Source: an uncultured Verrucomicrobiota bacterium (lineage in GTDB: Bacteria; Verrucomicrobiota; Verrucomicrobiia; Limisphaerales; CAYIIH01). From it: a stretch of DNA of 64,000 nt. Shown piece after piece: positions 6,735 to 49,748 of the stretch. Location: contig CAYIIH010000002.1 in NCBI GenBank assembly GCA_964363225.1, positions 28,880 to 92,879 of the forward strand, in the 5' to 3' direction. The translations under genes were made by a program, and so were the position numbers. The notes beneath the pieces were generated by a model, which searched no databases, was not told the DNA's origin, and worked only from the letters and a program-made list of their open reading frames with translations. Numbering within the stretch: position 1 is the stretch's first letter; each line of letters begins with the position of its first letter.

Positions 6735-6809
6735 ACTTCGCCCTGGCTGGGCTACGGGCTGATCGCCTGGGCTGTTCTAATAGCCGCCTCAAGCCTGTTT
6801 CGCGGTTGG

Positions 6810-7220: not shown

Positions 7221-7340
7221 ACCAAGCCGCCGAGTGCAAGCTGCGTTGCCCGTGCAAATAAGCCAGGCATGTCGGGGTGACTCAGATGGATCATGGCGAG
7301 CAACACCACTTGGCATTTGACCATCTGAGGCCTGACTGAC

Positions 7341-7963: not shown

Positions 7964-8090
7964 TGCGGGATGATCCCCGACGCGCCTGCTTTCACCCCAC
8001 AATAGCGAGGCAGCCTAGGCCGCTGGATCCTTACTATTCGATCACCGCCGCACCCCAGGTGGGGCTGGCGCCGAACGCTAAACAGAACAA

Positions 8091-8125
8091 GCCCGTCGCA
8101 GGGCGGTTTATGCCGCGCGACGGGC
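8091..8125 (-). terminator. putative intrinsic terminator hairpin
   Basis: gcccgtcgc (8091-8099) pairs with gcgacgggc (8117-8125). On the minus strand it is followed by ttgttctgttt. It lies downstream of the minus gene ending at 8168 and of vapC (+). Confidence 0.45.
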
Positions 8126-8167
8126 TGTGATTGAGAAAGGGCTGGGTGAGAAGTGGTTAGGAAAGAA

Positions 8168-8503
8168 TTACTTCTTGACCAGATCGATTTTGGTGGCGGT
8201 GAATTCCTTCTTGCCTTTCACTTCCTTGACCGTGCCTTCGGCGGTGACTTGTTCTTTGGTCGTGCAAATGTTCTTGTGGAATGCCCTGCTCACGTCGTTC
8301 TGCACCAGGTAATAGGTGACTTTCTTGCCGTTCTCCTCCACTTTAACGGCGTTTTGGCAGGAATCCGTTTCTTTCAATGAGCATTTGGCGCATTGTCCTT
8401 CGCCTTTGATCGTGACGGTCTTATCGGCCGCGAAGGTTTGGGTGGAGGCGCCCAGCAAGAGCAGCCCGGTGATCGACAGCGCCGCAGCGAATCTTTTCTT
8501 CAT
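8168..8503 (-). CDS. small secreted protein, unknown function
   Basis: 111 aa. Signal peptide MKKRFAAALSITGLLLLGASTQTFA, Lys-rich mature part, and 4 Cys. Confidence 0.65.
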   Translation of the reverse strand: MKKRFAAALSITGLLLLGASTQTFAADKTVTIKGEGQCAKCSLKETDSCQNAVKVEENGKKVTYYLVQNDVSRAFHKNICTTKEQVTAEGTVKEVKGKKEFTATKIDLVKK

Positions 8504-8630
8504 ACTAATTTTCCTTTCATTTTTTTAAAAAGTCTCAAGCGAACTTTTCAGGGGGACGGAGTACGACAATGGGCTTCAAAAAGCAAGAGCCAATTCAATC
8601 TTTACGATTTCTAATATCTCAGCCGGTGCT

Positions 8631-11600: not shown

Positions 11601-11696
11601 TTCGATCTCATTGATCCTGACCACCATAGGCCGCATCCTTTTGACTTCACGGTCGTTCTTCGAGCCGATGAGTTTCCTAATGATAAAGCCGATCAT
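8631..11696 (-). CDS. secA: preprotein translocase ATPase SecA
   Basis: 1021 aa. Motor motifs MATGEGKTLVATLP and TNMAGRGTDIKLG are present, with the C-terminal zinc finger CPCGSGKKYKQCCG. Confidence 0.97.
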   Translation of the reverse strand: MIGFIIRKLIGSKNDREVKRMRPMVVRINEIEASLQSLSDDDLRKKTADWKARLSTIEDNAELAKTLNEILPEAFAVVKNACRRRWGQEIIVRGHPLIWEMIPFDVQLIGGMALHTGRIAEMATGEGKTLVATLPVYLNALSGRGVHIVTVNDYLAARDSEWMGAIYRFLGLTVGCILHDQPPSVRREQYACDITYGTNAEFGFDYLRDNGMATRQEEQVQRGHYYAIVDEVDSILIDEARTPLIISGPAVVSVDNKFDQFKPPVESLVHTQESLCNRFLSEAVELIRQLQPEDGSNPANPEALENEIGLLLYRVKLGQPKSEGLLKLLEDPENLRRMNRAELELHAEQSKKLLYEQKEALFFAIDEKGHEADLSEKGRNLLSPKDPDAFMLPDLITAFHEIDTGPEPDVRKRLEAKTKLQVDFEEKALRIHCISQLLKAYCLYQKDVQYVIQGNKVIIVDENTGRLMTGRRWSDGLHQAVEAKEGVAVEAETQTYATITIQNYFRLYQKLAGMTGTAETEASEFFDIYKLGVLVIPTNKPVRRNDAHDTVYKTKREKFNAVLKEIQTIHQQGRPMLVGTISVEVSEHLSRMLKKAGIIHSVLNAKYHEQEAEIVARAGQRGSVTIATNMAGRGTDIKLGPGVPDLGGLHVIGTERHEARRIDRQLRGRCARQGDPGSSHFFIALEDDLMRLFGSDRIVKVMERVGLEEGQELEHPLLNRSIETAQKRVEQHNFQIRKRTLEYDDVMNKQREIIYGFRNDIIRADDVQDRLMDIMEEVVIQKTEQFTAADSDVQEWNVRALADWVNLNFPLGLPEGELIKAAHAGNELPVPGSVFDGLNAAQFSVCQFISQHIRDAYKLKVSFENPEALKEVERYTILSAIDKLWQEHLYGMDSLRNSIGLRAYGQRDPLIEYKAEAFKIFEELMVNIKTEICHNIFRSASSLMAFEQFLHTLPQRTVHHETSAFGQSQSAAPAKASDMVSEASEALAKAKPVRSGPKVGRNDPCPCGSGKKYKQCCGRNL

Positions 11697-11705
11697 GTTA
11701 TCATG

Positions 11706-13610
11706 CTATTTTCCAATGCCAGCGGGCGCCAAGGATGGCCGGCCAGCCATGCCCCGTTCCTCGGAACGAAGACTGGCCCAATATCGTTCGGGCAACATGC
11801 CCAGGCCCATGATGACCGCCTGGCTGGCCACGAACACCATCAACCACAGAAAAGCTTGGTCCATGAAACCATAGGAGTGAAGCCCAACCCCCAGCATATT
11901 GACGCCGAACCAGGAGAAACTGGTCACAATATTGCCGAACACCGTCATGGCCATCAGGCCGCGCTCCCGGAGCAAGCCGCCCCAGTGCACGTGCAGAATA
12001 ATTGCGTTCCAGAGGACAATCAGCAGCGCGCCGTTTTCCTTCGGATCCCATCCCCAAAAACGCCCCCAGGATTGATCCGCCCATATACCGCCCAGGATGG
12101 TGCCGACAAAACTGAACAAGGTGGCGAAACAGACGATCCCATAAACCATTCGGACCAGCGCCTGGCGGGTGGCACTGCCCAGGCTGCGGGTGAAAACGCC
12201 GCGCAAAATATAGACCACGGCCAGGAACCCGCCCACAAAGGTCGAAGCATAGCCCAAGGTGATCACCACCACATGGGTGGCCAGCCAGAAATTCGTGTCC
12301 AACACCGCGCGCAGCATTTCCATCGTATCGCCGTCCAGGGACAAGTTATGGGCGACCACCAAGCTGAGAAAACCAATGCAAGCAGCCGTCACGTTGCCGA
12401 TGCCGTCGCGGTAGATGCGTTCCAAAACCAGCCCTAAAATTACCGCGCCCCAGCCGACAAAGATCGCTGAGGAATAGAGGTTCGTCACAGGTGGGCGGCC
12501 TTCCAGGACCATGCGAAAAATCACACCGGAGGTGTGAACGACCAAGGCCAGCACAGCCAAATAGAAAGCCGAGCGGTTGAGCCAGGGTGATAGTTTCAAC
12601 CAAAAAGCGCAGGCCAAGAGAAAGGCCGTCAGGTAGAGCACGATGCTTTTGTAGAACGGCTGGTAACCATTGTAGAAAAACTCGCGCCGGCCCTTGTTCA
12701 GTTCGAGGTCGAACTTCTTCTCCGCCAGCCACTGCTGATAGTCGTCCACGGCCTTGTTAAACTCGGACGGCTGGCCGTGGCGATAGGCGGAGGCCATGGC
12801 GGCGTAGCGCGCGACGGCAGGATGGATTTGACCGGTGCGCGCCGATTCCAGCAAGCTGGCGCCGACATTGATCCAGTTCTCCCGGGTGTGTTCGGCCTCC
12901 TGCGGCGGGACCATGAGGGGGTAGGCAAACCGGGTCATGGCCTCATATTGGCCGAGTAATTCCAGGAGGCGATCGAAGGCTTTTTGATCGAACTCCTTCC
13001 CGGCTTCCCGGGCCCGGACGGCCGCCACGCCGGGGGCAATGCTCTGCTGGAACGCTTCGAGTTCCCGCGCGAAATCCTCCGATTCAGCCGGGCGCAGGCT
13101 GACCTTGAGCCGTTGGTACAAGGTGAGCGCGTGGTAGAGTTTCATCAGTTGCTTCTCGAAAGTCGTGCGCAATTGCGGGTCGGATTTCTTGGTCCGCTCC
13201 GCTTCGCTGATGCGTTCGGCCTGCTTGCCGATTTCCTCCAGTTGCGCTTGAAGCTGGTGGTAGGAAAAATGTTTTTCAGTTTCCGGCAGGCGCAGGAGGC
13301 CGAGCAATTCCGGGTGATCGATGCGGAAGACTTTCCGCTCGTCGGCCAGTTCCGGCTTCATCAGGACTTCGAGCAACCATTCCGAGGCCGGGAGTTTCTT
13401 CCCGTTTTCCAGCGCCACAGTCTGTTTGCCGCGCATGACCAGCAGCGCATTGCGGCCCACGGAATCGAGCGGCTGAATGCGCCCGTTCAAAAGCACGGGC
13501 AGCGTTCCGAATTCACGAATGTGAAATTCTTTTTCCGGCTTCGGCCGCAGCGCAGAGAGAATCCACACCGCGAAAAATCCCGTGACAATCCAGGGCAGCC
13601 ATTTCTTCAT
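11706..13610 (-). CDS. ccsA: System II cytochrome c biogenesis protein CcsA/ResC with long N-terminal extension
   Basis: Start moved to ATG 13610 (MKKWLPW...), giving an ATGA overlap with the resB stop. The Trp-rich heme-handling motif WGRFWGWDPKENGALL lies in a polytopic C-terminal core. About 340 aa precede the core. Confidence 0.85.
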   Translation of the reverse strand: MKKWLPWIVTGFFAVWILSALRPKPEKEFHIREFGTLPVLLNGRIQPLDSVGRNALLVMRGKQTVALENGKKLPASEWLLEVLMKPELADERKVFRIDHPELLGLLRLPETEKHFSYHQLQAQLEEIGKQAERISEAERTKKSDPQLRTTFEKQLMKLYHALTLYQRLKVSLRPAESEDFARELEAFQQSIAPGVAAVRAREAGKEFDQKAFDRLLELLGQYEAMTRFAYPLMVPPQEAEHTRENWINVGASLLESARTGQIHPAVARYAAMASAYRHGQPSEFNKAVDDYQQWLAEKKFDLELNKGRREFFYNGYQPFYKSIVLYLTAFLLACAFWLKLSPWLNRSAFYLAVLALVVHTSGVIFRMVLEGRPPVTNLYSSAIFVGWGAVILGLVLERIYRDGIGNVTAACIGFLSLVVAHNLSLDGDTMEMLRAVLDTNFWLATHVVVITLGYASTFVGGFLAVVYILRGVFTRSLGSATRQALVRMVYGIVCFATLFSFVGTILGGIWADQSWGRFWGWDPKENGALLIVLWNAIILHVHWGGLLRERGLMAMTVFGNIVTSFSWFGVNMLGVGLHSYGFMDQAFLWLMVFVASQAVIMGLGMLPERYWASLRSEERGMAGRPSLAPAGIGK

Positions 13611-17774: not shown

Positions 17775-19946
17775 CTAATAGGGCAAGGGAAATCTTGCGG
17801 TTAATTCGTGAACACGTTCGCGCACCTTGTGCGCGGCGTCAAGGCTTTTAATGTCGAGCAGCACTTCGCTGATCATGTCGGCGATGGCCGCCATTTCCGT
17901 TTCCCGAATGCCGCGGGTGGTCACGGCGGGCGTCCCCAGCCGAATGCCGCTGGCTTGGAAGGGGGAACGTGTCTCAAAGGGGATGGTATTCTTGTTGACC
18001 GTGAGGCCGGCCTCATCCAGGGCCGCCTGGCATTCCTTGCCGGTCAACCCTTTGGCGCCCACGTCCACCAGCATCAAATGGTTATCCGTTCCGCCGCTGA
18101 CCAGCCGGTAACCGTTGCGTTTCAGCCCGGCGGCCAGCGCTTTGGCATTGCTGACAATCTGGCGTTGGTACTGCCTGAAATCGGGCTGCAACGCCTCGTG
18201 GAAGCAGACGGCCTTGGCGGCAATGACATGCATGAGCGGCCCGCCTTGAATGCCGGGGAAAACCTGCGAATCAATTTCCCGGGCATACTTCTCCGGGCAA
18301 AGAATCAGGCCGCCCCGCGGCCCCCGCAAGGTCTTGTGCGTGGTGGTGGTGACAAAATCGGCATGGGGGATGGGGCTGGGATGCTCGCCGGCCACCACCA
18401 AACCCGCGATATGCGCAATGTCCGCCAGCAGGTAGGCGCCCGCTTCGCGCGCGATCTCTCCCATGCGGGCGAAATCGATGATCCGCGGATAGGCGCTGGC
18501 CCCGACCGTGATCATCCTTGGCTGGTGCTCGCGCGTCAGCCTGGCCAACTGGTCGTAGTCGATCTGTTCGTCTTCCTTGCGCACGCCATAATGGATCACT
18601 TCGAAGAAACGGCCGGAAAAATTGGCTTTGTTGCCATGCGTCAAATGCCCGCCATGACTCAAATCCATCGTCAGAATCCTGTCCCCGGGCTTGAGGAAGG
18701 CAAAATAGACGGCCATGTTCGCGCCGCTGCCTGAATGAGGCTGAACATTGGCATGCTCCGCGCCAAACAGCTTTTTGGCCCGGTCGATCGCCCATTGCTC
18801 CGCCGTATCGACGTTCTCGCAGCCGCCATACCAGCGCTTGCGCGGATAGCCTTCGGCATATTTGTTGGTGAGCACCGACCCTTGAGCTTCCATCACGGCC
18901 AGGCTGGTAAAATTCTCGCTCGCAATCAGCTCGATATTCTCTTGCTGGCGCTGCCGTTCCAATTGAATGGTCTCGGCAATCTCCGGGTCCGCCTTCCAGA
19001 GGTGCCATCCATAAGTTGCGGGAGGAACTTCCATCTTTTGCACGCGCCGTTGGTGGCGTCCGCCCTCAAAATGGGCCTGCAGGAAGGCCTCCAGAATCTT
19101 CTTGGCTTGATCAGGAGAGGCCGTTTTTCCGCCCAGGCACAGGATATTGGCGTCATTGTGCTGCCGGGCCAGCGTGGCCATCTGTTCATCAAAAGCCAGC
19201 GCGGCGCGCACGCCGGGAATCTTGTTGGCGGCCATGCACATGCCCACCCCGGTGGCGCAAATCAAAAGGCCAAACTGGCTTTTTTGACTGGCCACGCTTT
19301 GGGCCACGGCCTGGGCGAAATCCGGGTAATCGGCGGACTCGCTGGCATGGGTGCCGAAATCGGTCACGGCCAGGCCCAACTTCTGCAAGTGCTCCTTGAG
19401 CTGTTCCTTGAGTTCATAGCCCGCGTGGTCCGCGCCTATCGCCCAACCCGTCTTTTTCGATGCGTCGGGACCGGTCAGCGGAACGCCGGAGGTTTGTTCG
19501 ATGAATTTCAACATCGCGGCAATTCCTTGTTCGATTTGATCGCGGCAATTCAGGTAGGTTTCATACGAACCGCCAATGGGGTCGGGAATGTCCTTTTCAA
19601 AAGCATCCAGCGTCTCGTCAAACTCCCGCAGCAAAAACGTCTTCTCGGCGGCCAGCGGGTAGAGCAAGGTGATGGCATCGATGTGCCCGTGCGTCATGCC
19701 AAAAATGTAGTCCGCCTGTTGCACCAATTCCGCCGTCAGCATGCGGCTGCGCTGGCGCGAAATGTCAATGCCCAAATCCTCCAAAACCTGCACCGCATGC
19801 CCGCTGGGCGGCTGGCCATCAATCGCGCCGACTCCTGCCGAAAAGATCTGGTACTCTCCCCGGCCCTGCACGGTGTGCCGAAACAGCCCCTCCGCCATGG
19901 GGCTCCGGCAAACGTTCCCCGTGCAAACGAAAAGGATGGTCTTCAT
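17775..19946 (-). CDS. glyA: tri-domain fusion: low-MW protein phosphatase + ribose-5-phosphate isomerase B + serine hydroxymethyltransferase
   Basis: Start moved to ATG 19946 ([20 protein letters not shown] = CX5R(S) LMW-PTP loop; DPIGG). RpiB follows ([38 protein letters not shown]). SHMT comes last ([21 protein letters not shown]). There is one continuous frame with no stops. Confidence 0.85.
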
Positions 19947-20001
19947 GCCGGCGTTAATGGTTTCAAGTTGGGGCGCGCTCGGAGAATCGTCAACGGCGAA
20001 A

Positions 20002-21075
20002 TCAGAGCGAACGGAGTTGCTGCGCCATGGCCAGGCCCTTGAGGAAATCAATGCTGCGCGCCAGGACCGGGTCTCGGATGACCGGCTTCGTTTCGGCATC
20101 GCGATTCTTCGCGTCCGCGTCCGTTTCGATCCCTTCCCGATGTCTCCGGACCAATTCGGCTTCGTTGAGGCCCCGGCGAGCGAACGGATTGGTCGCAACG
20201 CCGGATAGGGCGTTGGTCCCGCCCGCCACGGACACGAGGGCGGGCACCGCGGCGAGGAGCTTGAATGCATCCTGGAAATACGCCCTTTCCTCCTCCAGGC
20301 TCACGGCCACCGCAATGTCCGGGGTGAGGCCGGCTGCGGTCAACGCCGGGCCCTCCGGCAATTGCACCCGGCTCCGGGCAATCCGCAGACGCTGGCCGTT
20401 GCTCAAGTTGAACTCCTGAAAAATGTGCGCCTCACCGGCGGTCGGGCTTCCGATCAGCAGGCCGATGCCGGCCTGGCGCAAAACGGCGGCCAGGGCCTCC
20501 GCCGCGCCCGAAGTCTGGCGGTTGACCAGAATCGCGACCGGCACTTTCAAGGCATTGGTCTTGACGGTGGAATGCTCGGTTTTATCACCCCATTTCAGCA
20601 GCGGTTGCTCGTGGGCTAAAAAGCGGTCCGCCACTTGGGCTGCGGCCGAATAATCATCGCCTCCGGCAAAGCGCAGATCGAGCACCAGACCGGCCAGTTT
20701 GTTCGTGGACTTGAGGCGCTGGAAAGAGTCCCTGACGGCTTCCGCCAAGCCGGATTCGACTCGAGCCACGCGCAGATAGGCCACCAAATTCTCATACACG
20801 TCGCTCTTGCCGATCAAAGGCCCCTCCGCGGGGACGGTGGAAAGACCGTTCGTGACCAAAACAACCTGCGAACCAAGCTGGGCCAGCAATCCTCGCGTGG
20901 CGGCCCGGTTCAACTCAGCCTCGCTCATGCCGGCCAAGTTCGAGCGGATTAAGCCGAAGACCTCCTGAAACTGCGGCGCCGGCTCTTCTTTGTCGGCTTG
21001 CGCCCTGATTAAACTCATTGAGCCCGCAATCCACGCGGCGCCCAGGGCGGTCATGATCCATTTCTGCAAGTTCAT
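20002..21075 (-). CDS. S41 (C-terminal processing peptidase)-like secreted protein
   Basis: ATG at 21075 ([18 protein letters not shown]... signal). [13 protein letters not shown] and [20 protein letters not shown]...[10 protein letters not shown] resemble the S41 core. The usual Ser/Lys positions look substituted by eye. Confidence 0.6.
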
Positions 21076-21161: not shown

Positions 21162-22463
21162 TCAGCCTGAATGGCGCAACGCTTTGGCGGCAATGTCCCG
21201 CCGAAAGTGCGCGCCCTCAAAATGAATTCGTTCCACGGCGGCATAAGCAGCCTGCCGCGCCTCCGCCAGACCGGGCGCCCAGGCGGTCACTCCCAAAACC
21301 CTCCCGCCGCTCGTGACAATCCCATCGCCCATCTGCGCGGTGCCGGCATGGAAAACCTTTGTGTTGGCCATCATAGCGGCGTCCGCCAGGCCGGAAATCG
21401 GATTGCCTTTGGCGTAACTTCCCGGATACCCGCCTGAAGCCATCACCACGCAAACCGAAGCCAGGAAACTCCACTGCAACTCCTTATGATCCAGCGTTCC
21501 GCCGACGCTGGCCTCCAGCAACTCGGCCAAGTCACTGTCCAGCCGTGTCAAATAGACTTGCGTCTCCGGATCGCCAAAACGGGCATTGAACTCCAGCACT
21601 TTCGGACCCTCCTTCGTCAGCATGACGCCGGGATAAAGGATGCCTCGGAAATCAATTCCCTCCGCTGCGCAGCCGCTCAGCCACGGGCCAATGATCCGTT
21701 CTTTCACCTCGAACAACTGCCGCTCGTTCAAGAACGGCGCCGGCGAGCAAGCTCCCATGCCTCCGGTGTTCAGGCCTTGGTCGCCCTCCAGCGCCCGTTT
21801 GTGGTCCTGCGAGGTCGGGAACAGTTTAGCCGTCCGGCCGTCGCAGAGCGCATGCAGGGAAATCTCCATCCCTTCCAGGAATTCCTGGATGACGATTTTC
21901 GTCCCCGCGGTGCCAAACGCTTTCCGGACCAGAACTTCCTCGATGGCTTGGTCAGCCTGGGCCATGTCTTGGCAGATCAGGACGCCTTTGCCGAGGGCCA
22001 GCCCATCGGCCTTCACGGCGCACCGGCCGCCCAGGGAGGCCGCGAACCGCGAAGCCGAAACCGCGTCCGCAAACGCGCCCGCCCGCGCCGTGGGAATGCC
22101 ATAGCGCTCCATGAAAGACTGGGCGAAGACTTTCGATGACTCGAACTGAGTGGCCTTTTGATTTGGCCCCCAGATACGCAGCCCGTTTTGTTGAAACAAA
22201 TCGACGATGCCCAGCGCCAGCGGATTGTCCGGCCCGACCACAGTGAGGTCCGGCTTCTTTTCCTGGGCGAAAGCCAGCAGCTTCGGCAGGGCCTCCGCGC
22301 CGAGGCCCACGCATTCAACCGGGGTTTCCTTGAGCGCCAGTTTTTCCTGGGCCATGCCGGCATTGCCTGGCGCGCACCACATCTGGGTGACGTGCGGCGA
22401 CTGCGCCAGTTTCCACACTAGCGCATGCTCGCGTCCTCCTGAACCGATGATCAGCAATTTCAT
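21162..22463 (-). CDS. purD: phosphoribosylamine--glycine ligase
   Basis: Start moved to ATG 22463 (MKLLIIGSGGREHALVWKLAQSP). ATP-grasp body and C-terminal GGRVLGVTA are present. Confidence 0.95.
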   Translation of the reverse strand: MKLLIIGSGGREHALVWKLAQSPHVTQMWCAPGNAGMAQEKLALKETPVECVGLGAEALPKLLAFAQEKKPDLTVVGPDNPLALGIVDLFQQNGLRIWGPNQKATQFESSKVFAQSFMERYGIPTARAGAFADAVSASRFAASLGGRCAVKADGLALGKGVLICQDMAQADQAIEEVLVRKAFGTAGTKIVIQEFLEGMEISLHALCDGRTAKLFPTSQDHKRALEGDQGLNTGGMGACSPAPFLNERQLFEVKERIIGPWLSGCAAEGIDFRGILYPGVMLTKEGPKVLEFNARFGDPETQVYLTRLDSDLAELLEASVGGTLDHKELQWSFLASVCVVMASGGYPGSYAKGNPISGLADAAMMANTKVFHAGTAQMGDGIVTSGGRVLGVTAWAPGLAEARQAAYAAVERIHFEGAHFRRDIAAKALRHSG

Positions 22464-39320: not shown

Positions 39321-39342
39321 GGCCGGGCGAAGGCTTCAAACG
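39321..39342 (+). repeat. 22-bp direct repeat, copy 1
   Basis: ggccgggcgaaggcttcaaacg, identical to 39764-39785. Confidence 0.9.
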
Positions 39343-39465
39343 GCTTTGGCGGCCGTTCATGCGGATTGATGATTTAGTCCGAAAGAGAATGGACGCCTTA
39401 TTCGAAGTATCCGCCGATGATCGCGCAGTTGACTAACAGCCAAAAAGCATGAAAATCACGGCGTT

Positions 39466-39702
39466 ATGTCAACGTCAGCCTTCAACGAAATCGAAAGCCA
39501 GTTTGCGGGATTGTCGCCAGAAGCTCAATTGAACCTATTGGAACGTCTCGTGCATCACGTCCGCGTGGGCTTGACCGGCAGTCACGGCGTTTGGGAAGCC
39601 GACCTCTCTGCGATGGCCGCCGATCCGGAAATGCAAAGAGAACTCAGGCGCATCAACGCGGAGTTCAGCGCCGCTGAAGCCGACGGGCTGGGGAGAGACT
39701 GA
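39466..39702 (+). CDS. putative antitoxin of a MazEF-like pair
   Basis: 78-aa helical ORF. Its TGA shares a base with the ATG of the MazF stub (TGATG at 39700-39704). Confidence 0.5.
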   Translation: MSTSAFNEIESQFAGLSPEAQLNLLERLVHHVRVGLTGSHGVWEADLSAMAADPEMQRELRRINAEFSAAEADGLGRD

Positions 39703-39806
39703 TGGCTGTCCAGCGCGGCGACATTTACCTGGTCAAACTGAATCCGGTGAAAGGACGAGAGCAGGCCGGGCGAAGGCTTCAAACGCCCTTGACTTCCGCT
39801 CGTTAA
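39702..39806 (+). pseudogene. truncated MazF/PemK-family toxin stub (34 codons)
   Basis: MAVQRGDIYLVKLNPVKGREQAGRR matches the MazF N-terminus (GDIYxVxLxPxxGxEQxGxR). Homology stops exactly where direct-repeat copy 2 begins, and a stop follows at 39804-39806. Confidence 0.6.
39764..39785 (+). repeat. 22-bp direct repeat, copy 2 (at MazF truncation point)
   Basis: ggccgggcgaaggcttcaaacg, identical to 39321-39342. Confidence 0.9.
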
Positions 39807-40084
39807 GATAAACCCAGCGGTGAAGGCTAACGTGAAAGAATATTGGGAGGGCAAGGCTCCTGACGAGCCTTGATTCAAGCACGAATGAACGCCGATGATC
39901 ACGAATCCAGCCGTAGCAGTCGGCGTAAGAAGGCTCTGATTCAAAGGGCTAAAAGCCCGAAAAGCAACAGCCCAAAGCAAGCGAGGCGAAGCGAGCGCTG
40001 CCCGGAGCAAGCCATTCCGGGAATTTAAGTGGCCTCCCAGACGGTGAAATGTAGTGGTTGCAAAGTCTCGGCCAATCATTTGAA

Positions 40085-41410
40085 ATGTGGGTGATGCCAT
40101 TTGACGTCTCGGTAATCGACCAAATCGCTAACCTGTATCACGCTGATGACCGACCCTGGGTTGTAGGTTTTAGCGGCGGTAAAGATTCGACTGCACTGCT
40201 CCAGCTTGTATTCCACGCGTTGACCAAAATCCCGTCAGACGCGCGCAAAAAGCAGGTTCACGTTGTGAGCAACGACACGCTGGTTGAAATCCCACAGGTC
40301 GCTCAGATGGTGCTTGAGACTTTGGTGAAAATCGAAAAGGGGGCGAAGCGTCGAGGCTTGCCAATGGTCGTTGCTCAGACGAGACCGGAGCTGGAGGATT
40401 CGTTCTTCGTCAACATTATCGGGCGGGGATACCCATCGCCCACCAGCCGATTTCGCTGGTGCACTGAGCGCATGAAGATCGACTCGACGACGCGCTACAT
40501 CACCAAGTTGGTCGAGACGCGCGGCGAGGTCATCATTTTGCTCGGCGCGCGCAAAGCTGAGAGCAACACTCGCGCTCAAACCATGGAGAGCCATAAAATC
40601 GAAGGCTCGATCTTGCGGCGCCACTCGACACTTCCCCGCTCCTACGTGTACACCCCGATCGAGGATTGGACGACGCAAGAAGTTTGGGCCTATTTGATTG
40701 GCGTGCCCTCACCTTGGGGCGGAGACAATCGGGCTTTGTTCCACCTGTATAAACAAGCGGACGGTGGAGAGTGTCCGTTGGTCATCGACAAATCCACTCC
40801 GAGTTGCGGCAACTCCCGTTTCGGCTGTTGGACTTGCACGGTCATTGAGAATGACAAAGCGGTGGAGGGATTCATTGAATCAGGCGACGAACATCTCGAG
40901 CCGCTGCTTGAGTTCAGGAATTTTTTGAAGGAAGCACGTTCGCGGCGCGACTGGCGGGAGCGAGTCCGAAAAAATGGCCAGTTAAAGAATCAAGACGGCG
41001 AAGAAGTGTGGGGCCCGTTCACTCTCGAAGCACGGAAAGCAATTTTGCGGCGGCTGTTGGAGACGGAGAAGAAGGCCGGCTTTCAGCTAATCTCTATCGA
41101 TGAGCTTTTGCTGATTCAACGGTTTTGGAAAAAGGGTGGTCGTTCGCTCACAGGCCCGACCGCCGACATTGATTTCTCAGTGGCGAAAATCCTGAGAGAA
41201 ACACGAGGAGAGACAGCTATGAGTGGTTACCTTGATTTGCTGGAAGGCGGGGTTGACCCGCTGCTGAAGACAGTGTGTGAGCAATACGACTTGCCGCCTG
41301 AATTAATTGAACGGCTCAAAGCGGAAGAGGAGGCTGTTGCCCATTTGCAGCGCCGCGACGGAATCTTTCAGCGCATTGACGAGATACTGGATAGCGTACA
41401 GGCGAAGTAA
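40085..41410 (+). CDS. dndC: DndC-like PP-loop ATP pyrophosphatase / PAPS-reductase-fold protein (DNA phosphorothioation type)
   Basis: PWVVGFSGGKDST (SGGKDS at 40172-40189), RGYPSPTSRFRWCTERMKI, and the Cys cluster CPLVIDKSTPSCGNSRFGCWTC (40772-40837). The start is uncertain (TTG 40058, ATG 40085 or ATG 40094). Confidence 0.8.
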   Translation: MWVMPFDVSVIDQIANLYHADDRPWVVGFSGGKDSTALLQLVFHALTKIPSDARKKQVHVVSNDTLVEIPQVAQMVLETLVKIEKGAKRRGLPMVVAQTRPELEDSFFVNIIGRGYPSPTSRFRWCTERMKIDSTTRYITKLVETRGEVIILLGARKAESNTRAQTMESHKIEGSILRRHSTLPRSYVYTPIEDWTTQEVWAYLIGVPSPWGGDNRALFHLYKQADGGECPLVIDKSTPSCGNSRFGCWTCTVIENDKAVEGFIESGDEHLEPLLEFRNFLKEARSRRDWRERVRKNGQLKNQDGEEVWGPFTLEARKAILRRLLETEKKAGFQLISIDELLLIQRFWKKGGRSLTGPTADIDFSVAKILRETRGETAMSGYLDLLEGGVDPLLKTVCEQYDLPPELIERLKAEEEAVAHLQRRDGIFQRIDEILDSVQAK

Positions 41411-41441
41411 CCTCATCGGCCTAAAGGCGGGCCCCGGGGAC

Positions 41442-43532
41442 ATGCTGATTGACTACCTTTCAGTTGAAAATTTTGGTCCGTTCAGCGGGCCTCACCGCTT
41501 GAACCTCGCACCGTCGCCAGACGGCAAGAAGTCGGTCGTTTTGATTGGCGCTGATAACGGAGCAGGGAAAACGACACTTCTCAGCGCGTTGAAGCTGTGC
41601 CTTTACGGCAAGCGAGCGGCGGATTTGTGGGACGGTGGCCAACAGGGTTATCGGCAATTCATTAGCGAGAAGTTCAATAACCGCGCATTCGACTCCGGCG
41701 AACGCCAAATGATTTTGGAGATTAGCCTCCGCGTTTGGGAACACAAGATTGAGCACACCCTCACGGTCAGACGTTCATTCCAAATCACTGACAGTCGCCT
41801 GTTCTTGACGGACAATCAGGAAACCCTTGAGGTGCTGCGAGACGGTAAACTTTGGGAGCGGCCTTTCCCTGATCTCCCCGAAGAAGACGACGCGAACCAA
41901 TACGATGACCTGCTGCGGCTTTTAATCCCGCCCAATCTTGCGCAGTTTTACTTTTTTGACGGTGAGCGCGTGCGTGAATTGTTCAAAAAGGCGAGCGCGG
42001 AGAACATCTCACAAGCCATCCGGGACTTGCTCGGTCTCTCGTTGCTCGAGCGGCTGGTGGACGATTTACGAGATTATCGGCGGACCACAATCCCTCGCCT
42101 TTACGGAAAGCACCACGACAAACAAGCCGCTCTGCTTCAGGCCCAAGGAGAAAGAGAGCAGCTTCGTGGTGAGATTCAGAGGTTGGAAGCCGAGGCCCGA
42201 GAAATTGAGGAAGACCTCTCCGAACTGGGCGCCAAGATTACCGAAAAGGAGAACGAGTTCCGCCGTCTTGGCGGATTGCAGCAGGTAGAGGTTGACCAAA
42301 TCAAAGAACAAGAGCAGCAGTGCAAGCTGGAGCATGAGCGTTTGACCGCGGAGCTTAAAGCAGCACTTGGTGATCAAATCTCAGTTTCGTTTCTGCTGCC
42401 GCTCAAGGCGGCGTGGGAAAAACGAATTGAGAAGGAAGCAGAGCGCCGTCGCTGGTTGACGAGACGCGAGGCGATTGAACCGTACATCAAGCGGCTGATT
42501 GACCGACTTGTTGGTCCCAACGCGCCCCAACCCGAGCCACCGTTGACGCGGGGACAGACTGCCTTCTTTACGCAGCGAATCGAGGAAGAGGTGAAGGGGC
42601 TCTGGCAGCCGCCGCCTGCCGAAGCCAGCGAAGATTTCTGGTTTGATTTGCGACAGGAAGAAATTGACCAAATCCGCAAACTGTTCGAGGAAGCGTTGCG
42701 CTTTTCATTGGGCCGTGTGCAGGAGTTGGTGGAAGCCAAAGAACGCGTGAGCGCGCAGCGGCGTCGCCTGCTGGAAAAACTGCAAAGCTTGGGCGACACA
42801 GAGGCGACTCAAGCCATTGCGAAGGAAATTGCAGAACGTCATCAGAAGAAAGGCTCGCTGAACCAGAAGCGATCGGACTTGGAAACGGAGATTGCACACC
42901 GGAATGACAAGCTGACCGAAATCGAGCGGCAAATCACGAACCTCGAGCAGGAATGCGGGAAATCGGCGAAGGGGAAGACCAAGAGCGACCTTTCCAACCG
43001 CGTTGAGCAAACCATCAAGGATTACCTTGAGCAGGCCAAAGTCCGGAAATCTGATGAAATCGAGCGCCACTTGAATCAGCTTTTCCTGGCGATGGCGAAC
43101 TGCCGTGACGAGATTCGAGAATTGAAGTTGAACCGGCAGACGTACGAGATCGAGATCGTGGACAAGGAAGGCCGAAGGCGGCCGATTGAAAACGGGCTTT
43201 CGGCGGGTCAAGCCCAGGTTCTGGCGATGGCGTTTGTCGGCGCGCTAGCCAAGGCAAGTGGCAGAATCCTGCCTCGCATCGTGGACACGCCGCTCGGACG
43301 CCTCGACGTGAATCATCGCCGTGACGTGACGCGCCACTTCTTCATCGAAAACGCTTCGCCTCAAACGATCCTTTTGAGCACGCCCACGGAGATCAACAAC
43401 TGCGTTTACGACAACCAGCCGCTGCGGCTTCTTGACGACTTGCGCCCTCATACCGCACGAGTCGCAACGCTCGTGAAGAAGGGGCCGGGTCAGACGTTGA
43501 TTGAGTCGCATTACTTCGGGAACAAGCTGTAG
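41442..43532 (+). CDS. dndD: DndD-like SMC/ABC-type ATPase
   Basis: Start moved to ATG 41442 (MLIDYLSVENFGPFSG...). Walker A GADNGAGKTT lies at 41547-41576. A long coiled-coil centre is present. The C-terminal block is LSAGQAQVLAMAF...IVDTPLGRLDVNHRRDV...ILLSTPTEI (DTPLGRLD at 43284-43307). Confidence 0.8.
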   Translation: MLIDYLSVENFGPFSGPHRLNLAPSPDGKKSVVLIGADNGAGKTTLLSALKLCLYGKRAADLWDGGQQGYRQFISEKFNNRAFDSGERQMILEISLRVWEHKIEHTLTVRRSFQITDSRLFLTDNQETLEVLRDGKLWERPFPDLPEEDDANQYDDLLRLLIPPNLAQFYFFDGERVRELFKKASAENISQAIRDLLGLSLLERLVDDLRDYRRTTIPRLYGKHHDKQAALLQAQGEREQLRGEIQRLEAEAREIEEDLSELGAKITEKENEFRRLGGLQQVEVDQIKEQEQQCKLEHERLTAELKAALGDQISVSFLLPLKAAWEKRIEKEAERRRWLTRREAIEPYIKRLIDRLVGPNAPQPEPPLTRGQTAFFTQRIEEEVKGLWQPPPAEASEDFWFDLRQEEIDQIRKLFEEALRFSLGRVQELVEAKERVSAQRRRLLEKLQSLGDTEATQAIAKEIAERHQKKGSLNQKRSDLETEIAHRNDKLTEIERQITNLEQECGKSAKGKTKSDLSNRVEQTIKDYLEQAKVRKSDEIERHLNQLFLAMANCRDEIRELKLNRQTYEIEIVDKEGRRRPIENGLSAGQAQVLAMAFVGALAKASGRILPRIVDTPLGRLDVNHRRDVTRHFFIENASPQTILLSTPTEINNCVYDNQPLRLLDDLRPHTARVATLVKKGPGQTLIESHYFGNKL

Positions 43533-43540
43533 GAGGCGAG

Positions 43541-45052
43541 ATGGCAAACTTACATCCTTCGAAGGAGACACACGAGTTCTTAGAGAACACACTGGCAAAA
43601 CGGACGGGTGTTCGGCGCAATGTGTGGGCGAGGATTGCGGCGTCTCGTTCTCTCACCTTGCCGAATCTGCCGCAGGAAATGGAGATTGACTCCGAAGGAC
43701 TTGAACTGAGGCGTGAGACTATCCTTGGCGACCAAGACGCTCTCTTCAAAGCGATCTTCACGCTCCGCTACGAGCGACCGCTATCGGACGATGAGTTCTT
43801 CCCAAAGCTCTTTAAGCTGCATCTGGAACGGGGAACGAAACTGCTGAAGCAGGACTGGGAATTGGCCGGGGGACGCGCGGAGGACTTCTACGCTAAGTTG
43901 GCGGAAAACCTTCCGAAAATGCACCTGCCGGAGAGCAGGTTGATCGAACATCGGGGTGTCCAGAAGCTACTCCGCTTGGAAGTAGGCAATGTTTTTGAGA
44001 CAAATGAGCCGTTGGTCTGGATGCTGAACAGTGCGAACAATGCCCATGCTGCCATTGTTGGCACAACCGGAAGCGGCAAAACTCATCTCGTAAAAGACTT
44101 GCTGGTTCAGGTCACTGAACAAACGCAGGGGAAGTTGCCATTTGTGTTTTTTGACTACGCCCGTGGTGACGTGGCGGGTGATGCCGACTTTGTAAAAGCA
44201 AGCAAAGCTCGCGTTGTCAGTTTGCCTGATACGCCTGTCCCACTCAATCCGTTTCCCGGCTGTCGAACGCCAATCGAAATCAACCAACAGGCTCATCACC
44301 TAGCCAAAATTTTCCGCGACGTTGCGCCACACATCGGAATCGTTCAGGAACAACGGCTGGTTGCCGCAGTCCAGCAGTGCTATCACGACAGCCAAGGCAA
44401 GCCACCAGACTTCTACGACCTCCGAACGGTTGTCGAAGCCACCGGCGACATGGATTCGTTAACAGGTGTGCTCGGAAAGCTCACCGACTTGAATCTGTTT
44501 CCGTCGCTGCATGTGGACCAAGCCCTCCAGACGCAAGACCTCTTAGCCAGTTCTTGGATAATTGACCTGCACAAGCTGCAAGATCTCCGCGAACTGGTTC
44601 TGTTCCTCGTCGTGGATACTCTCAAGAACTATTTCAGCCGGCTGCGCGACCAGTCCGTTGACGAGACGAGCGGGGCGAGGGAGTTACGTTGCCTCCTGGT
44701 CATTGACGAAGCACACAACTTTCTGCCAAAAGACAACGCGCAAGTTTTGGAAAAATGCTTGCGCGAGATGCGCGGCAAGGGCCTCGGCACCTGGCTGCTG
44801 TCACAGAACCCGCGTGACCTCGACCAAGACCATTACAACTACGCCACCGAGGTGAACTTCCACATGTGCCTCAAGGTTCTGGACGCTAAGCCGCAGATAC
44901 TCACGAATCTCTACGGCGTTCCTCCCACGGAAGCAAAAAACTGGGCGGTCCGACTCGCCACTTTTGAGCGTGAAGGGATTTGCCGAAATTCGGCTGTGCC
45001 AAAAGGTTTTTCGAAAATTGGTGTCCGGCAGTTTTGGCAGCGGAAGCATTGA
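43541..45052 (+). CDS. fusion of a DndE-like N-terminal domain with a HerA/FtsK-type (DUF87-like) P-loop ATPase
   Basis: AGGAGG at 43531-43536 lies 4 nt before the ATG. The N-terminus SKETHEFLENTLAKRTGVRRNVWARIAASRSL resembles DndE (SKEa..L..Lk.rTGi.pN..aRiA...S). Walker A is IVGTTGSGKTH (44060-44086), Walker B is LLVIDEAHNF (44693-44722), and LGTWLLSQNPRDLD is also present. Confidence 0.7.
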   Translation: MANLHPSKETHEFLENTLAKRTGVRRNVWARIAASRSLTLPNLPQEMEIDSEGLELRRETILGDQDALFKAIFTLRYERPLSDDEFFPKLFKLHLERGTKLLKQDWELAGGRAEDFYAKLAENLPKMHLPESRLIEHRGVQKLLRLEVGNVFETNEPLVWMLNSANNAHAAIVGTTGSGKTHLVKDLLVQVTEQTQGKLPFVFFDYARGDVAGDADFVKASKARVVSLPDTPVPLNPFPGCRTPIEINQQAHHLAKIFRDVAPHIGIVQEQRLVAAVQQCYHDSQGKPPDFYDLRTVVEATGDMDSLTGVLGKLTDLNLFPSLHVDQALQTQDLLASSWIIDLHKLQDLRELVLFLVVDTLKNYFSRLRDQSVDETSGARELRCLLVIDEAHNFLPKDNAQVLEKCLREMRGKGLGTWLLSQNPRDLDQDHYNYATEVNFHMCLKVLDAKPQILTNLYGVPPTEAKNWAVRLATFEREGICRNSAVPKGFSKIGVRQFWQRKH

Positions 45053-45263
45053 ACTGAGTCGTCGCCGTTGCTGGCCGGTGGGCCGCAATTTGATTTATTT
45101 CGCCGAGGTGGCCGAGCCTTGCCATACGTTATGCCCGAACTTGGAAACAGCTTTGCCCGACGCCGCGCGACAGTTTGAGGGCCTCCAACCCTGCCGTCAT
45201 CGGCGCTCGTTCGTGCCTCGTTCGTGTCTTGCCACTTGTGACAAGACAGGCCATACTTCGAGC

Positions 45264-47690: not shown

Positions 47691-48098
47691 ATGAGAGTCT
47701 TCATAAGCTATGCGATGCCGGATGCTGAACTGGCGCGGAAGGTTGCCGATGGACTACGGCGTGAAGGGTTGAGCGTTTGGCTGGCCGACCAGGAGATATT
47801 ACCGGGAGACAACTGGGCGGAGAAAGTTTCGCAAGCGTTGAACGAATCGCAGGCGATGGTGGTGTTGATCACGTCCGAGACGTTCCGGTCCCGTGCCGTG
47901 ATGCGCGAGATCGAATTTGCCTTGGGCAACAAAGAATACCGTCAGCGCCTGATTCCTGTGGTCATCGAATCGGAACGGATACCGGATGAGACCATTCCGT
48001 GGATTCTGCGGCGATACCAGATGGTTCGTGTGCCGGAAGGAGGGCGGATCGCGGATTGTGTCAGCGAGATTAAGCGGGCCTTGCTTGTGACAGCCTGA
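47691..48098 (+). CDS. stand-alone TIR-domain protein (135 aa)
   Basis: RVFISYAMPDAELARKVADGLRREGLSVWLADQEILPGDNWAEKVSQALNESQAMVVLITSETFRSRAVMREIEFAL fits the bacterial TIR pattern (FISY..D, G..VW.D, G..W, vvvlS...S.w...E). No other domain is present. Confidence 0.7.
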   Translation: MRVFISYAMPDAELARKVADGLRREGLSVWLADQEILPGDNWAEKVSQALNESQAMVVLITSETFRSRAVMREIEFALGNKEYRQRLIPVVIESERIPDETIPWILRRYQMVRVPEGGRIADCVSEIKRALLVTA

Positions 48099-49124: not shown

Positions 49125-49748
49125 GTGATGAGGATCTCAGCGGCACTGCGAACAGCGTATAGGCCGGTCATGGCGTTGGTGCTCTCGCTTGCGGTTTGGC
49201 AGGGCTGGGCGGCGCAGCCGAAGCCTTTGGGCAAGCTGACCAATTGCCGGTATGTCACGGCGGATTACAATGATGGCGACAGTTTTCACGTGCGTTCCGA
49301 CCGCAGCGATTTCGTTCTTCGGCTTTACTTTGTGGACGCGCCTGAGACTACTCTGCGTGATGCGGTGCGGACGCAGGAGCAGCGTCAATATTTTGATGTG
49401 ACTTCCGATGAGACGATAGACGCCGGGTTGAAAGCGAAAGAGGCGGTGCATGACATGTTGCAGCAGCCCTTCGTGGTCTGGACGCGCCGGGCGACCGCCC
49501 CAGGCCGGAGCCAGTTGCCCCGCTATTACGGGTTGGTGGAGGTCAAAGGCACGAACCTGACCGAATGGTTGGTCAGCAAAGGCTTGGCGCGAGTCAAAGG
49601 CGTTCGCACCCAATTACCCGACGGCCAAAAGTCGAAAACGTACCTGGAAAAACTCCGCAAGCTGGAAAAGGAAGCCAAAGAAAAGCGAGCCGGGATTTGG
49701 GCGTTCTCGAAAACAAGCAACTCAGACAAAATCCCGCCAAAGAAATAA
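49125..49748 (+). CDS. staphylococcal-nuclease (thermonuclease, SNase) family protein
   Basis: Signal-like N-terminus. DGDSFHV...LRLYFVDAPET, YGLVEV...NLTEWLVSKGLARV, and EAKEKRAGIWA resemble the SNase fold motifs. Confidence 0.7.
   Translation: MMRISAALRTAYRPVMALVLSLAVWQGWAAQPKPLGKLTNCRYVTADYNDGDSFHVRSDRSDFVLRLYFVDAPETTLRDAVRTQEQRQYFDVTSDETIDAGLKAKEAVHDMLQQPFVVWTRRATAPGRSQLPRYYGLVEVKGTNLTEWLVSKGLARVKGVRTQLPDGQKSKTYLEKLRKLEKEAKEKRAGIWAFSKTSNSDKIPPKK

What the first reader, a model, noticed from the sequence alone, without database searches (positions are those of the whole stretch)
40058..45052. dndC - dndD - (dndE::HerA-like ATPase) operon: a stripped-down, rearranged DNA phosphorothioation-type module
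Three co-directional, tightly spaced ORFs are present. The gaps are 31 nt and 8 nt, and AGGAGG lies 4 nt before the third ATG. ORF1 carries the PP-loop SGGKDS (40172-40189), RGYPSPTSRFRWCTERMKI, and the Cys cluster CPLVIDKSTPSCGNSRFGCWTC (40772-40837). These are the hallmarks I associate with DndC and its relative SspD. ORF2 has Walker A GADNGAGKTT (41547-41576), a long coiled-coil centre, and the C-terminal LSAGQAQVLAMAF...IVDTPLGRLDVNHRRDV...ILLSTPTEI block typical of DndD/SspC-type SMC-like ATPases. ORF3 starts with a DndE-like segment. Known layouts are dndA plus dndBCDE (often with dndFGH or pbeABCD), or sspABCD (with sspE or sspFGH). This window shows no cysteine desulfurase, no DndB/SspB-like gene and no recognisable PT-dependent restriction partner, and DndE is not free-standing. 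It could be a minimal modification-only module that borrows a housekeeping IscS. Alternatively it could be an undescribed Dnd-like variant in which the fused ATPase supplies a new activity.
Basis: partly seen in the sequence, partly recalled or inferred. Interest (0 to 1): 0.85.

Follow-up and report, generated by a model that had tools for sequence, protein, structure and literature searches.

The report
Compact dndC-dndD-dndEi phosphorothioation cassette
This is an intact three-gene cassette for putting sulfur into the DNA backbone, of an already described type in which DndE is fused to a DNA-motor ATPase ("DndEi"), so it is a new member of a known kind and not a new system.

Summary
Window 40058-45052 holds three co-directional genes with the stated motifs, gaps and ribosome-binding site. 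Curated models identify them as DndC, DndD and a DndE domain fused to a HerA/FtsK-type ATPase. No cysteine desulfurase, DndB, DndFGH, Pbe or Ssp partner was found in the 64 kb.

The "undescribed variant" reading does not hold. The DndE-ATPase fusion is the published DndEi, shown in Riemerella anatipestifer to be a helicase/ATPase required for phosphorothioation. A 2024 NAR survey already lists DndE-fused HerA/FtsK domains as a sister group of some DndH C-termini. The same survey reports DndA in only 32% and DndB in 51% of Dnd-carrying taxa, with IscS able to substitute for DndA. An earlier survey found 45.6% of dndBCDE clusters without dndFGH. The gene order C-D-E is canonical. GenBank already names all three proteins Dnd proteins, in a Verrucomicrobiota genome assembled from a metagenome.

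New here:
- The same 5.0-kb three-gene cassette (85% nucleotide identity, dN/dS 0.06-0.08) sits in unrelated flanks in soil contigs.
- It has lower GC than its surroundings.
- In both genomes it lies next to toxin-antitoxin genes.

Best reading: a horizontally acquired, modification-only PT writer using a housekeeping desulfurase. Interest is low.

The parts
40042..40084 (+). Conserved 5' leader of the cassette; the left end of the DNA shared with the soil cassette in L070
   Evidence: blastn homology between window 40042-45045 and L070 9958-14961 starts here. No convincing sigma-70 promoter was found in it.
40085..41410 (+). dndC: PP-loop ATP pyrophosphatase / [4Fe-4S] sulfurtransferase. The probable start is ATG 40085 (441 aa); the longest ORF and the GenBank call start at TTG 40058 (450 aa).
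   Evidence: TIGR03183 462.5 bits (cut-off 290.4) and PADLOC DndC 511 bits. SGGKDS is at 40172-40189 and the Cys cluster at 40772-40837. The PP-loop and C126/C230/C241/C248/C251 are conserved in >=93% of 16 homologues. The C-terminal PF20306 Sp-DndD hit lies inside the normal DndC model range.
41442..43532 (+). dndD: coiled-coil (SMC-like) ABC ATPase of the DndD clade
   Evidence: TIGR03185 340.9 bits (cut-off 245.85); PADLOC DndD 371 bits and PbeC 381 bits. Walker A is at 41547-41576. Walker A, the signature S587xG589..Q592 and Walker B D615-D622 are conserved in >=93% of 17 homologues, and there is no CxC zinc hook.
43531..43536 (+). AGGAGG ribosome-binding site for dndEi, overlapping the dndD stop codon
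   Evidence: Read directly from the sequence.
43541..43861 (+). dndEi N-terminal DndE domain (aa 1-107): two tandem ribbon-helix-helix units
   Evidence: PF08870 59.8 bits (cut-off 25). TIGR03184 gives 50.4 bits, below its 71.85 cut-off. PDB DndE 7x4e matches at E 1.6e-6. The AF2 model shows strand-helix-helix twice: E4/H8-22/H26-38 and E56/H58-77/H83-108.
43958..44920 (+). dndEi C-terminal HerA/FtsK-type P-loop ATPase (aa ~140-460). Walker A GTTGSGKT is at 44060-44083 and Walker B LLVIDE at 44693-44710.
   Evidence: PADLOC DndH C-terminus 105.7 bits; Pfam DUF87/HerA_C/FtsK. phmmer against PDB gives the DptH C-domain 7es4 at E 3.7e-14. Foldseek top hit is 7es4 (E 1e-22, TM 0.87, rmsd 2.5), followed by VirB4 and HerA. 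G174/G177/G179/K180, D389/E390, R408/R411 and Q422 are invariant in 34 homologues.
43541..45052 (+). dndEi, the whole gene (503 aa)
   Evidence: GenBank MEK7675042.1 'DndE family protein'.

Best explanation
This is a horizontally acquired, self-contained 5.0-kb dndC-dndD-dndEi cassette that writes phosphorothioate (PT) marks on the host's own DNA. It has no linked restriction partner.

Inferred mechanism, by analogy with characterised Dnd systems:
1. A housekeeping cysteine desulfurase (IscS/SufS/NifS type) encoded outside this window makes a persulfide.
2. DndC, a PP-loop ATP pyrophosphatase with a Cys-ligated Fe-S cluster, activates the backbone phosphate and inserts the sulfur.
3. DndD, a coiled-coil ABC ATPase, scans or loops DNA together with the DndE part of DndEi. 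The two ribbon-helix-helix units of DndE read the target motif.
4. The HerA/FtsK-type ATPase fused to DndE supplies ATP-driven unwinding or translocation at the site, as shown for R. anatipestifer DndEi.

Shown here: gene identities, intact catalytic motifs, the fold of DndEi, recurrence of the cassette in unrelated flanks, purifying selection, and absence of partner genes in 64 kb. Inferred: actual PT formation, the sulfur donor, the target motif, and the biological role. With no partner nuclease seen, that role is more likely epigenetic or redox-related, or protection against PT-reading nucleases, than classical restriction.
For: - Family assignments clear the curated cut-offs for DndC and DndD, and the Pfam cut-off for DndE.
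- DndC and DndD catalytic motifs are conserved in >=93% of homologues. Walker A/B, the arginine fingers and the sensor Q of the DndEi ATPase are invariant in 34 homologues.
- The AF2 model has pLDDT 89.9, a double-RHH N-terminus, and an ATPase closest to the DndH C-domain 7es4 at TM 0.87.
- The same three genes recur on soil contigs L070-L075 with identical lengths (441/696/503 aa) and identical 31-nt and 8-nt gaps, between different neighbours.
- DNA homology of 85% over 5007 bp stops at the cassette ends, window 40042-45045.
- dN/dS is 0.06-0.08 for all three genes.
- Cassette GC is 0.548 against 0.58-0.60 in the flanks, and GC3 is 0.63-0.66 against 0.68-0.78 in housekeeping genes.
- L067 (62% identity) is also a three-gene-only locus.
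- Literature: DndEi helicase/ATPase activity is essential for PT, and IscS substitutes for DndA (PMC6435447). DndA is present in 32% and DndB in 51% of Dnd taxa, and DndFGH is commonly decoupled (PMC10853773).
Against: - No PT chemistry can be tested here.
- No cysteine desulfurase was seen in the window or in 10 kb beyond its left end, so the sulfur donor is assumed.
- Closer relatives L001, L066 and the P0010 contig keep dndB and a ~170-aa gene downstream. Loss of the negative regulator DndB may therefore change how the cassette behaves.
- One relative (L003/L004) has lost dndC and most of dndD, so cassettes of this lineage do decay.
- The TIGR03184 DndE equivalog cut-off is not reached (50.4 against 71.85 bits).
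- Homology to the experimentally studied R. anatipestifer protein itself was not verified.
Confidence: 0.75

Rival explanations
1. The cassette is the modification half of a full PT restriction-modification defence. Its reader nuclease (DndFGH, PbeABCD, an SspE-like or SBD-HNH type enzyme) would be encoded elsewhere in the genome, outside the 64-kb window.
For: About half of dnd clusters do pair with dndFGH. Dnd modification neighbourhoods often carry other nucleases. Relatives L001/L002 have an Mrr_cat nuclease gene 0.6-1.7 kb past dndB. The ATPase domain is the sister of DndH C-domains.
Against: No nuclease partner appears in 64 kb or in the 10 kb beyond the left end. The independent copies L070-L075 and L067 also carry none within 5-10 kb. 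DNA homology stops at the three genes, so any partner does not travel with the cassette.
Confidence: 0.17
2. The cassette is a decaying, non-functional remnant of a larger dnd island that once also held dndB, a ~170-aa gene and dndA.
For: Relatives at 59-74% identity have dndB and a small gene downstream, and L066 has an Aminotran_5 gene 5.7 kb away. L003/L004 show an advanced deletion. The neighbouring mazF is truncated.
Against: All three ORFs are full length with intact motifs. Against an independently located copy, dN/dS is 0.06-0.08 and the alignments are gapless. No dndB or accessory-gene remnants lie in the flanks even at E<=5.
Confidence: 0.05
3. The DndD-DndEi pair directs a modification other than PT, or acts as a HerA/FtsK 'capture'-type anti-invader motor, with DndC playing a secondary role.
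For: Homologous DndD + DndE-HerA pairs occur without DndC: next to a type-I-like N6 methylase, an S subunit and a GmrSD/'Orf5' nuclease (L014, L023, L024, L028, L029), and in Flavobacterium loci with Schlafen/AlbA proteins. The NAR 2024 survey proposes that the DndDE core recruits other modifications.
Against: Here a bona fide DndC with all catalytic residues is the first gene of the operon and is under the same purifying selection. No methylase or nuclease gene is adjacent. In the NJ tree the window clade is separate from the methylase-linked clade.
Confidence: 0.03

Closest known systems
DndEi-type Dnd systems (Riemerella anatipestifer ATCC 11845, Flavobacterium indicum, Kordia algicida; Zheng et al. 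J Biol Chem 2016, as summarised in PMC6435447)
   Same: A canonical DndE part sits in one polypeptide with an extra P-loop ATPase/helicase domain, encoded with the other dnd modification genes. The window protein has exactly this architecture.
   Different: I could not obtain the R. anatipestifer sequence, so direct homology is untested. The Flavobacterium homologues I did retrieve are only 25-26% identical over the full length, and their loci lack DndC. The window clade forms its own 50%-identity cluster, with its next relatives at 37% identity or less.
HerA/FtsK 'clade-3' of Rakesh, Aravind & Krishnan, NAR 2024 (PMC10853773)
   Same: [quoted passage not shown] Here the best sequence and fold matches of the ATPase are DndH/DptH C-domains.
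   Different: No difference in kind. I did not place the window protein in their tree.
Canonical dndBCDE (+dndA) of Salmonella enterica Cerro 87, E. coli B7A and Streptomyces lividans
   Same: DndC, DndD and a DndE domain in the same C-D-E order. Reliance on IscS instead of a linked DndA is documented for some strains.
   Different: DndE is fused to an ATPase. There is no dndB regulator, no dndA within 64 kb, and no dndFGH.
Solitary PT R-M+ clusters (Tong et al. 2018, via PMC6435447; e.g. Pseudomonas fluorescens Pf0-1)
   Same: A modification module without dndFGH; 615 of 1349 clusters are of this type.
   Different: Those clusters are dndBCDE with a free-standing DndE.
DndH/DptH (restriction component of DndFGH)
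   Same: The C-terminal HerA/FtsK ATPase fold: 7es4 at TM 0.87 and rmsd 2.5 Å.
   Different: ORF3 is 503 aa and lacks every N-terminal DndH domain (inactive SF2 domain, TRDs, inactive methylase, REase). DndH models are ~1400-1700 residues long and match only at their C-termini.

Membership tests
Dnd PT-modification module (DndCDE core) | DndC: PP-loop (SGGKDS) ATP pyrophosphatase with a conserved cysteine cluster, scoring above the DndC equivalog cut-off | tested here: met
   TIGR03183 462.5 bits against a cut-off of 290.4. Motifs read directly and conserved in >=93% of 16 homologues.
Dnd PT-modification module (DndCDE core) | DndD: coiled-coil ABC ATPase of the DndD clade (no CxC zinc hook), above the equivalog cut-off | tested here: met
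   TIGR03185 340.9 bits against 245.85. Walker A, signature and Walker B are conserved and there is no CxC motif.
Dnd PT-modification module (DndCDE core) | DndE: two tandem ribbon-helix-helix units | tested here: met
   PF08870 59.8 bits against 25. The AF2 model shows strand-helix-helix twice. PDB DndE 7x4e matches at E 1.6e-6. Caveat: the TIGR03184 equivalog gives 50.4 bits, below its 71.85 cut-off.
Dnd PT-modification module (DndCDE core) | Operonic linkage of dndC, dndD and dndE | tested here: met
   Same strand, gaps of 31 and 8 nt. The same arrangement occurs in L001, L066, L067 and L070-L075.
Dnd PT-modification module (DndCDE core) | Linked cysteine desulfurase DndA. This is frequent but not defining: it is present in 32% of taxa. 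| tested here: not met
   No IscS-like tblastn hit in the window and no Aminotran_5 in the Pfam scans. Frequency from PMC10853773.
Dnd PT-modification module (DndCDE core) | DndB regulator. Not defining: present in 51% of taxa. | tested here: not met
   No DndB-like hit in the window.
Dnd PT-modification module (DndCDE core) | Phosphorothioate linkages present in the DNA | not testable with these tools
   Needs LC-MS/MS or iodine cleavage.
DndEi subtype | A DndE domain and an additional ATPase/helicase domain in one polypeptide, encoded next to dndD | tested here: met
   The definition comes from PMC6435447 and PMC10853773.
DndEi subtype | Sequence homology to the characterised R. anatipestifer DndEi | not tested
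   The paper (PMC4714231) is not held. A Flavobacterium homologue aligns over the full length at 26% identity, E 4e-40.
DndEi subtype | DNA-stimulated ATPase and helicase activity required for PT | not testable with these tools
   Only the intact Walker A/B, arginine fingers and sensor Q could be checked.
SspABCD system | SspD-type PP-loop enzyme with SspA/B/C partners | tested here: not met
   SspD model 37.9 bits against DndC 511 bits. No SspA/B/C-like genes are present.
PbeABCD | PbeC together with PbeA, PbeB and PbeD | tested here: not met
   ORF2 scores 381 bits on one PbeC model against 371 bits on DndD. PbeC is a DndD paralogue, and ORF2 sits between dndC and dndE and passes the TIGR03185 cut-off. 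No PbeA/B/D genes are present.
DndFGH (DndH) | The ~1400-1700-aa multidomain DndH (TRDs, inactive methylase, REase) with DndF and DndG | tested here: not met
   Only the C-terminal ~330 positions of the DndH models match. The protein is 503 aa.
MADS (mad1-8) | mad methylase, specificity and accessory genes | tested here: not met
   Only a 55.5-bit mad8 hit on the ATPase. No methylase is in the neighbourhood.

The most novel reading that the evidence does not exclude
The 5-kb dndC-dndD-dndEi unit would be an autonomous 'minimal PT writer' that moves as a block between genomes and lands preferentially in toxin-antitoxin or defence islets. It would need neither DndB nor a dedicated DndA. Its DndH-like HerA/FtsK motor would let the same complex also act directly on incoming DNA (translocation or exclusion), so that writer and anti-invader functions reside in three genes with no nuclease.
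Probability: 0.07. Interest if true: 0.45.

Novelty: new member of a known kind. Interest (0 to 1): 0.15.

Why it matters
It matters little beyond cataloguing. The locus shows that the DndEi-type phosphorothioation module exists in groundwater and soil Verrucomicrobiota as a compact three-gene cassette under strong purifying selection, moving without dndA, dndB or a nuclease.

That makes it a convenient minimal construct for asking two questions in a heterologous host that has IscS. Are DndC, DndD and DndEi sufficient for PT? What does the fused HerA/FtsK motor contribute? It does not open a new class of system.

Tried and rejected
- I tried to read Zheng et al. 2016 (PMC4714231). It is not held, so DndEi properties are cited second-hand from PMC6435447.
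- A second homologous-protein run with a diverse alignment (A3), meant to reach Riemerella/Kordia DndEi, returned the same 35 proteins.
- The genome-contig scan hit its 600-stretch limit. Its 61 loci are therefore a sample and not a census, and it did not return the window's own genome or Riemerella.
- I looked for mobility signals. There are no tRNA genes in the window. No integrase or transposase appeared in the Pfam scans. No flanking direct repeats bracket the cassette; the only notable repeat (39321/39764) lies entirely on the left side. The transfer mechanism stays unknown.
- I looked for the missing part of mazF and for dndB or accessory-gene remnants in the flanks. None were found.
- A weak PADLOC 'Orf5' hit on window 21486-22139 (18.7 bits) had no Pfam support. 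I dismissed it as noise.
- The promoter/terminator scan around the operon was not above shuffled expectation.
- 'Sp-DndD' (PF20306) at the DndC C-terminus was considered as a possible extra fusion. I rejected this because the TIGR03183 DndC model itself spans that region (profile positions 2-445 of 447).
- An SspD identity for ORF1 and a PbeC identity for ORF2 were considered and rejected (see the membership tests).
Full report
**Observation**

The three ORFs exist as described.
- SGGKDS at 40172-40189.
- The Cys cluster at 40772-40837.
- The DndD Walker A at 41547-41576.
- Gaps of 31 nt and 8 nt.
- AGGAGG at 43531-43536, which overlaps the dndD stop and ends 4 nt before ATG 43541.

The only adjustment is the dndC start. 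Homologues and DNA homology favour ATG 40085 (441 aa) over TTG 40058.

**Identity of the three genes**

- ORF1 is DndC. It scores 462.5 bits on TIGR03183 (cut-off 290.4) and 511 bits on PADLOC DndC, against 55.7 bits for generic PAPS_reduct, 59 bits for BrxP and 37.9 bits for SspD.
- ORF2 is DndD. It scores 340.9 bits on TIGR03185 (cut-off 245.85), while generic SMC/Rad50/SbcC models score 26 bits or less. A PbeC model scores slightly higher than the best DndD model in PADLOC (381 against 371 bits). PbeC is a DndD paralogue, and the gene lies between dndC and dndE.
- ORF3 has a DndE domain at aa 7-107 (PF08870 59.8 bits, cut-off 25) and a P-loop ATPase at aa ~140-460. The best matches of the ATPase are the C-termini of DndH models (105.7 bits), then CedB, VirB4, HerA and mad8. 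Against PDB sequences, the best hits are the DptH C-domain 7es4 (E 3.7e-14) and DndE 7x4e (E 1.6e-6).
- An AlphaFold2 model of ORF3 built on 34 homologues has pLDDT 89.9. It shows two strand-helix-helix (RHH) units at the N-terminus. Foldseek puts 7es4 first (E 1e-22, target TM 0.87, rmsd 2.5 Å), followed by VirB4 and HerA hexameric translocases.
- Walker A (G174-T181), Walker B (D389/E390), R408/R411 and Q422 are invariant in the 34 homologues. DndC and DndD catalytic residues are conserved in >=93% of 16-17 homologues, and DndD has no CxC hook.

**Neighbourhood**

The window is an ordinary chromosomal stretch. It carries secA, cytochrome c assembly genes, rho, a glyA fusion, purM/F/L/Q/S, a TatD-like hydrolase, sugar-metabolism genes, TPR proteins and histidine kinases. 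Its gene content is typical of the Planctomycetes-Verrucomicrobia-Chlamydiae group.

Exact-sequence look-up shows it is a Verrucomicrobiota MAG already in GenBank. The three proteins are named there: DndC (MEK7675044.1), DndD (MEK7675043.1) and 'DndE family protein' (MEK7675042.1). A contig carrying an identical window protein (1410-2396) comes from an ENA assembly whose record name begins Hain_H43_02um, apparently a filtered-water sample.

I found no partner genes anywhere in the 64 kb:
- tblastn gave no IscS-like or DndB-like hit.
- PADLOC and Pfam scans of the remaining ORFs gave no DndFGH, Pbe, Ssp or other nuclease partner.
- The flanks hold no remnants of dndB or of the small accessory genes seen in relatives.

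**Relatives and how the cassette travels**

- ORF3 has 35 homologues in the word-indexed protein search. In the exhaustive 1.84-billion-representative search it has 319 at E<=1e-10. Of the 149 best representatives, 122 carry both the DndE-like and the ATPase parts, and 108 of those are 470-560 aa. The fusion is therefore a widespread family. The window clade is one 50%-identity cluster within it, and all other clusters are 37% identical or less.
- A DndC >=90% identical to the window's occurs on 13 soil contigs. The six contigs read (L070-L075) hold the same three genes with identical lengths (441/696/503 aa) and identical 31-nt and 8-nt gaps. Their neighbours are unrelated: RND efflux genes, a HicB-like antitoxin, DUF4926/DUF6883, and PIN plus ORF6N.
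- blastn aligns window 40042-45045 with L070 9958-14961 at 85% identity over 5007 bp, and the homology stops at the cassette ends. tblastx against L001, L066, L067 and L003 likewise stops at the three genes.
- dN/dS between the window and the L070 copy is 0.061 for dndC, 0.081 for dndD and 0.075 for dndEi, with gapless alignments.
- Cassette GC is 0.548 against 0.58-0.60 in the flanks. GC3 is 0.63-0.66 against 0.68-0.78 in housekeeping genes.
- In the window the cassette sits 280 bp after an antitoxin-like ORF and a mazF truncated after ~25 codons.
- More distant members of the clade keep extra genes: [721 aa]-dndC-D-Ei-[175 aa]-dndB-Mrr in L001, C-D-Ei-[89]-[170]-dndB in L066 with an Aminotran_5 gene 5.7 kb away, and Ei-dndB on the P0010 contig. 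L067 is three-gene only.
- L003/L004 keep an intact DndEi preceded only by the last 91 codons of dndD.
- Among the species-representative genomes sampled, PT-type loci (dndC-dndD-dndEi) occur with dndB and an antisense IscS-like dndA (L041, L043, L044, L048, L051, L064), with dndA only (L042, L045, L047, L050, L052), or with neither (L038, L039, L056).

**Comparison with what is known**

[quoted passage not shown] Its extra domain has helicase and ATPase activity, inactivating it abolishes PT, and the ATPase is stimulated by GAAC/GTTC DNA. The same review says IscS can replace DndA, and that 615 of 1349 dndBCDE clusters lack dndFGH.
- PMC7464106 reports dndEi in Bacteroidales.
[quoted passage not shown] This matches the sequence and fold results here. 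The paper also reports DndC in 70%, DndB in 51% and DndA in 32% of Dnd-carrying taxa, with frequent decoupling from DndFGH. It defines DndE as two RHH units, which the model reproduces.

**Mechanism**

The most likely mechanism (confidence 0.75) is PT writing by DndC, with sulfur from an unlinked housekeeping desulfurase. Targeting would come from DndD together with the RHH part of DndEi. The fused HerA/FtsK motor would supply ATP-driven unwinding or translocation. No linked restriction arm is present.

Shown here are gene identities, motif integrity, the fold, cassette recurrence, purifying selection and the absence of partners in the window. Inferred are PT formation, the sulfur donor, the target motif and the biological role.

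The rivals are:
- An unlinked restriction partner elsewhere in the genome (0.17).
- A decaying remnant (0.05), argued against by the low dN/dS and intact motifs.
- A non-PT modification or a motor-only function (0.03), argued against by the conserved DndC.

**Verdict**

It belongs to a divergent Verrucomicrobiota/soil lineage of DndEi-type dnd modules that travels as a minimal 5-kb cassette. Interest is 0.15.

Noticed in passing
window 39321-39806: A 78-aa antitoxin-like ORF (39466-39702) is followed by a mazF/pemK gene that is truncated after ~25 codons (39703-39806). A 22-nt exact direct repeat, GGCCGGGCGAAGGCTTCAAACG, occurs at 39321 and 39764, and the second copy lies exactly where the MazF homology ends. 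The rest of mazF is nowhere in the window. The independent cassette copies L070-L075 also sit among toxin-antitoxin genes (HicB-like, PIN/ORF6N).
   Followed up: partly
L003 3463-5262 and L004 1135-2934: A DndEi 78% identical to the window's is intact. It is preceded only by the last ~91 codons of dndD, and there is no dndC. This is a partly deleted cassette between phoU and a methyltransferase gene.
   Followed up: partly
L014, L023, L024, L028, L029 (e.g. L024 3580-13272): A DndD plus DndE-HerA/FtsK pair occurs without DndC. It sits downstream of a type-I-like N6 methylase (PADLOC MTase_I 487 bits, weak mad2) and an S subunit (weak mad5), and upstream of a GmrSD/'Orf5' nuclease. This looks like a methylation-linked relative of the Dnd core, in taxa from Lysinibacillus to Paracoccus.
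   Followed up: partly
L032, L035, L040 (Flavobacterium and relatives), about 5500-13500: An HTH-rich 650-750-aa protein, a DndD-like ATPase, a DndE-HerA fusion and then a Schlafen/AlbA_2 or large P-loop protein. No DndC was detectable, so not every flavobacterial 'DndEi-like' gene is in a PT locus.
   Followed up: partly
window 47691-48098: A stand-alone 135-aa TIR-domain protein (PF13676 89.7 bits; PADLOC SAVED_TIR/ThsB-like hits) lies between a 3-keto-disaccharide hydrolase gene and ThuA genes. An SNase-like gene is at 49125-49748.
   Followed up: no
window 17775-20270 (- strand): A single 831-aa ORF combines a low-molecular-weight phosphatase, RpiB and serine hydroxymethyltransferase domains. 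It is an apparent triple fusion, or genes joined in frame.
   Followed up: no
L001 4350-6515 and L041 14856-20636: A 721-aa protein with weak methyltransferase and HNH-repeat hits lies directly upstream of dndC in L001/L002. It has a 64%-identical homologue, plus further fragments, near the dnd locus in L041. It could be an unrecognised accessory gene of some DndEi-type islands.
   Followed up: no
L068/L069 (ENA assemblies ERZ2470813, ERZ1300416): Contigs 98.8% identical to window 40253-45228 have dndD and dndEi split into several short gene calls. At ~1.5x coverage these are probably assembly frameshifts and not real pseudogenes.
   Followed up: no
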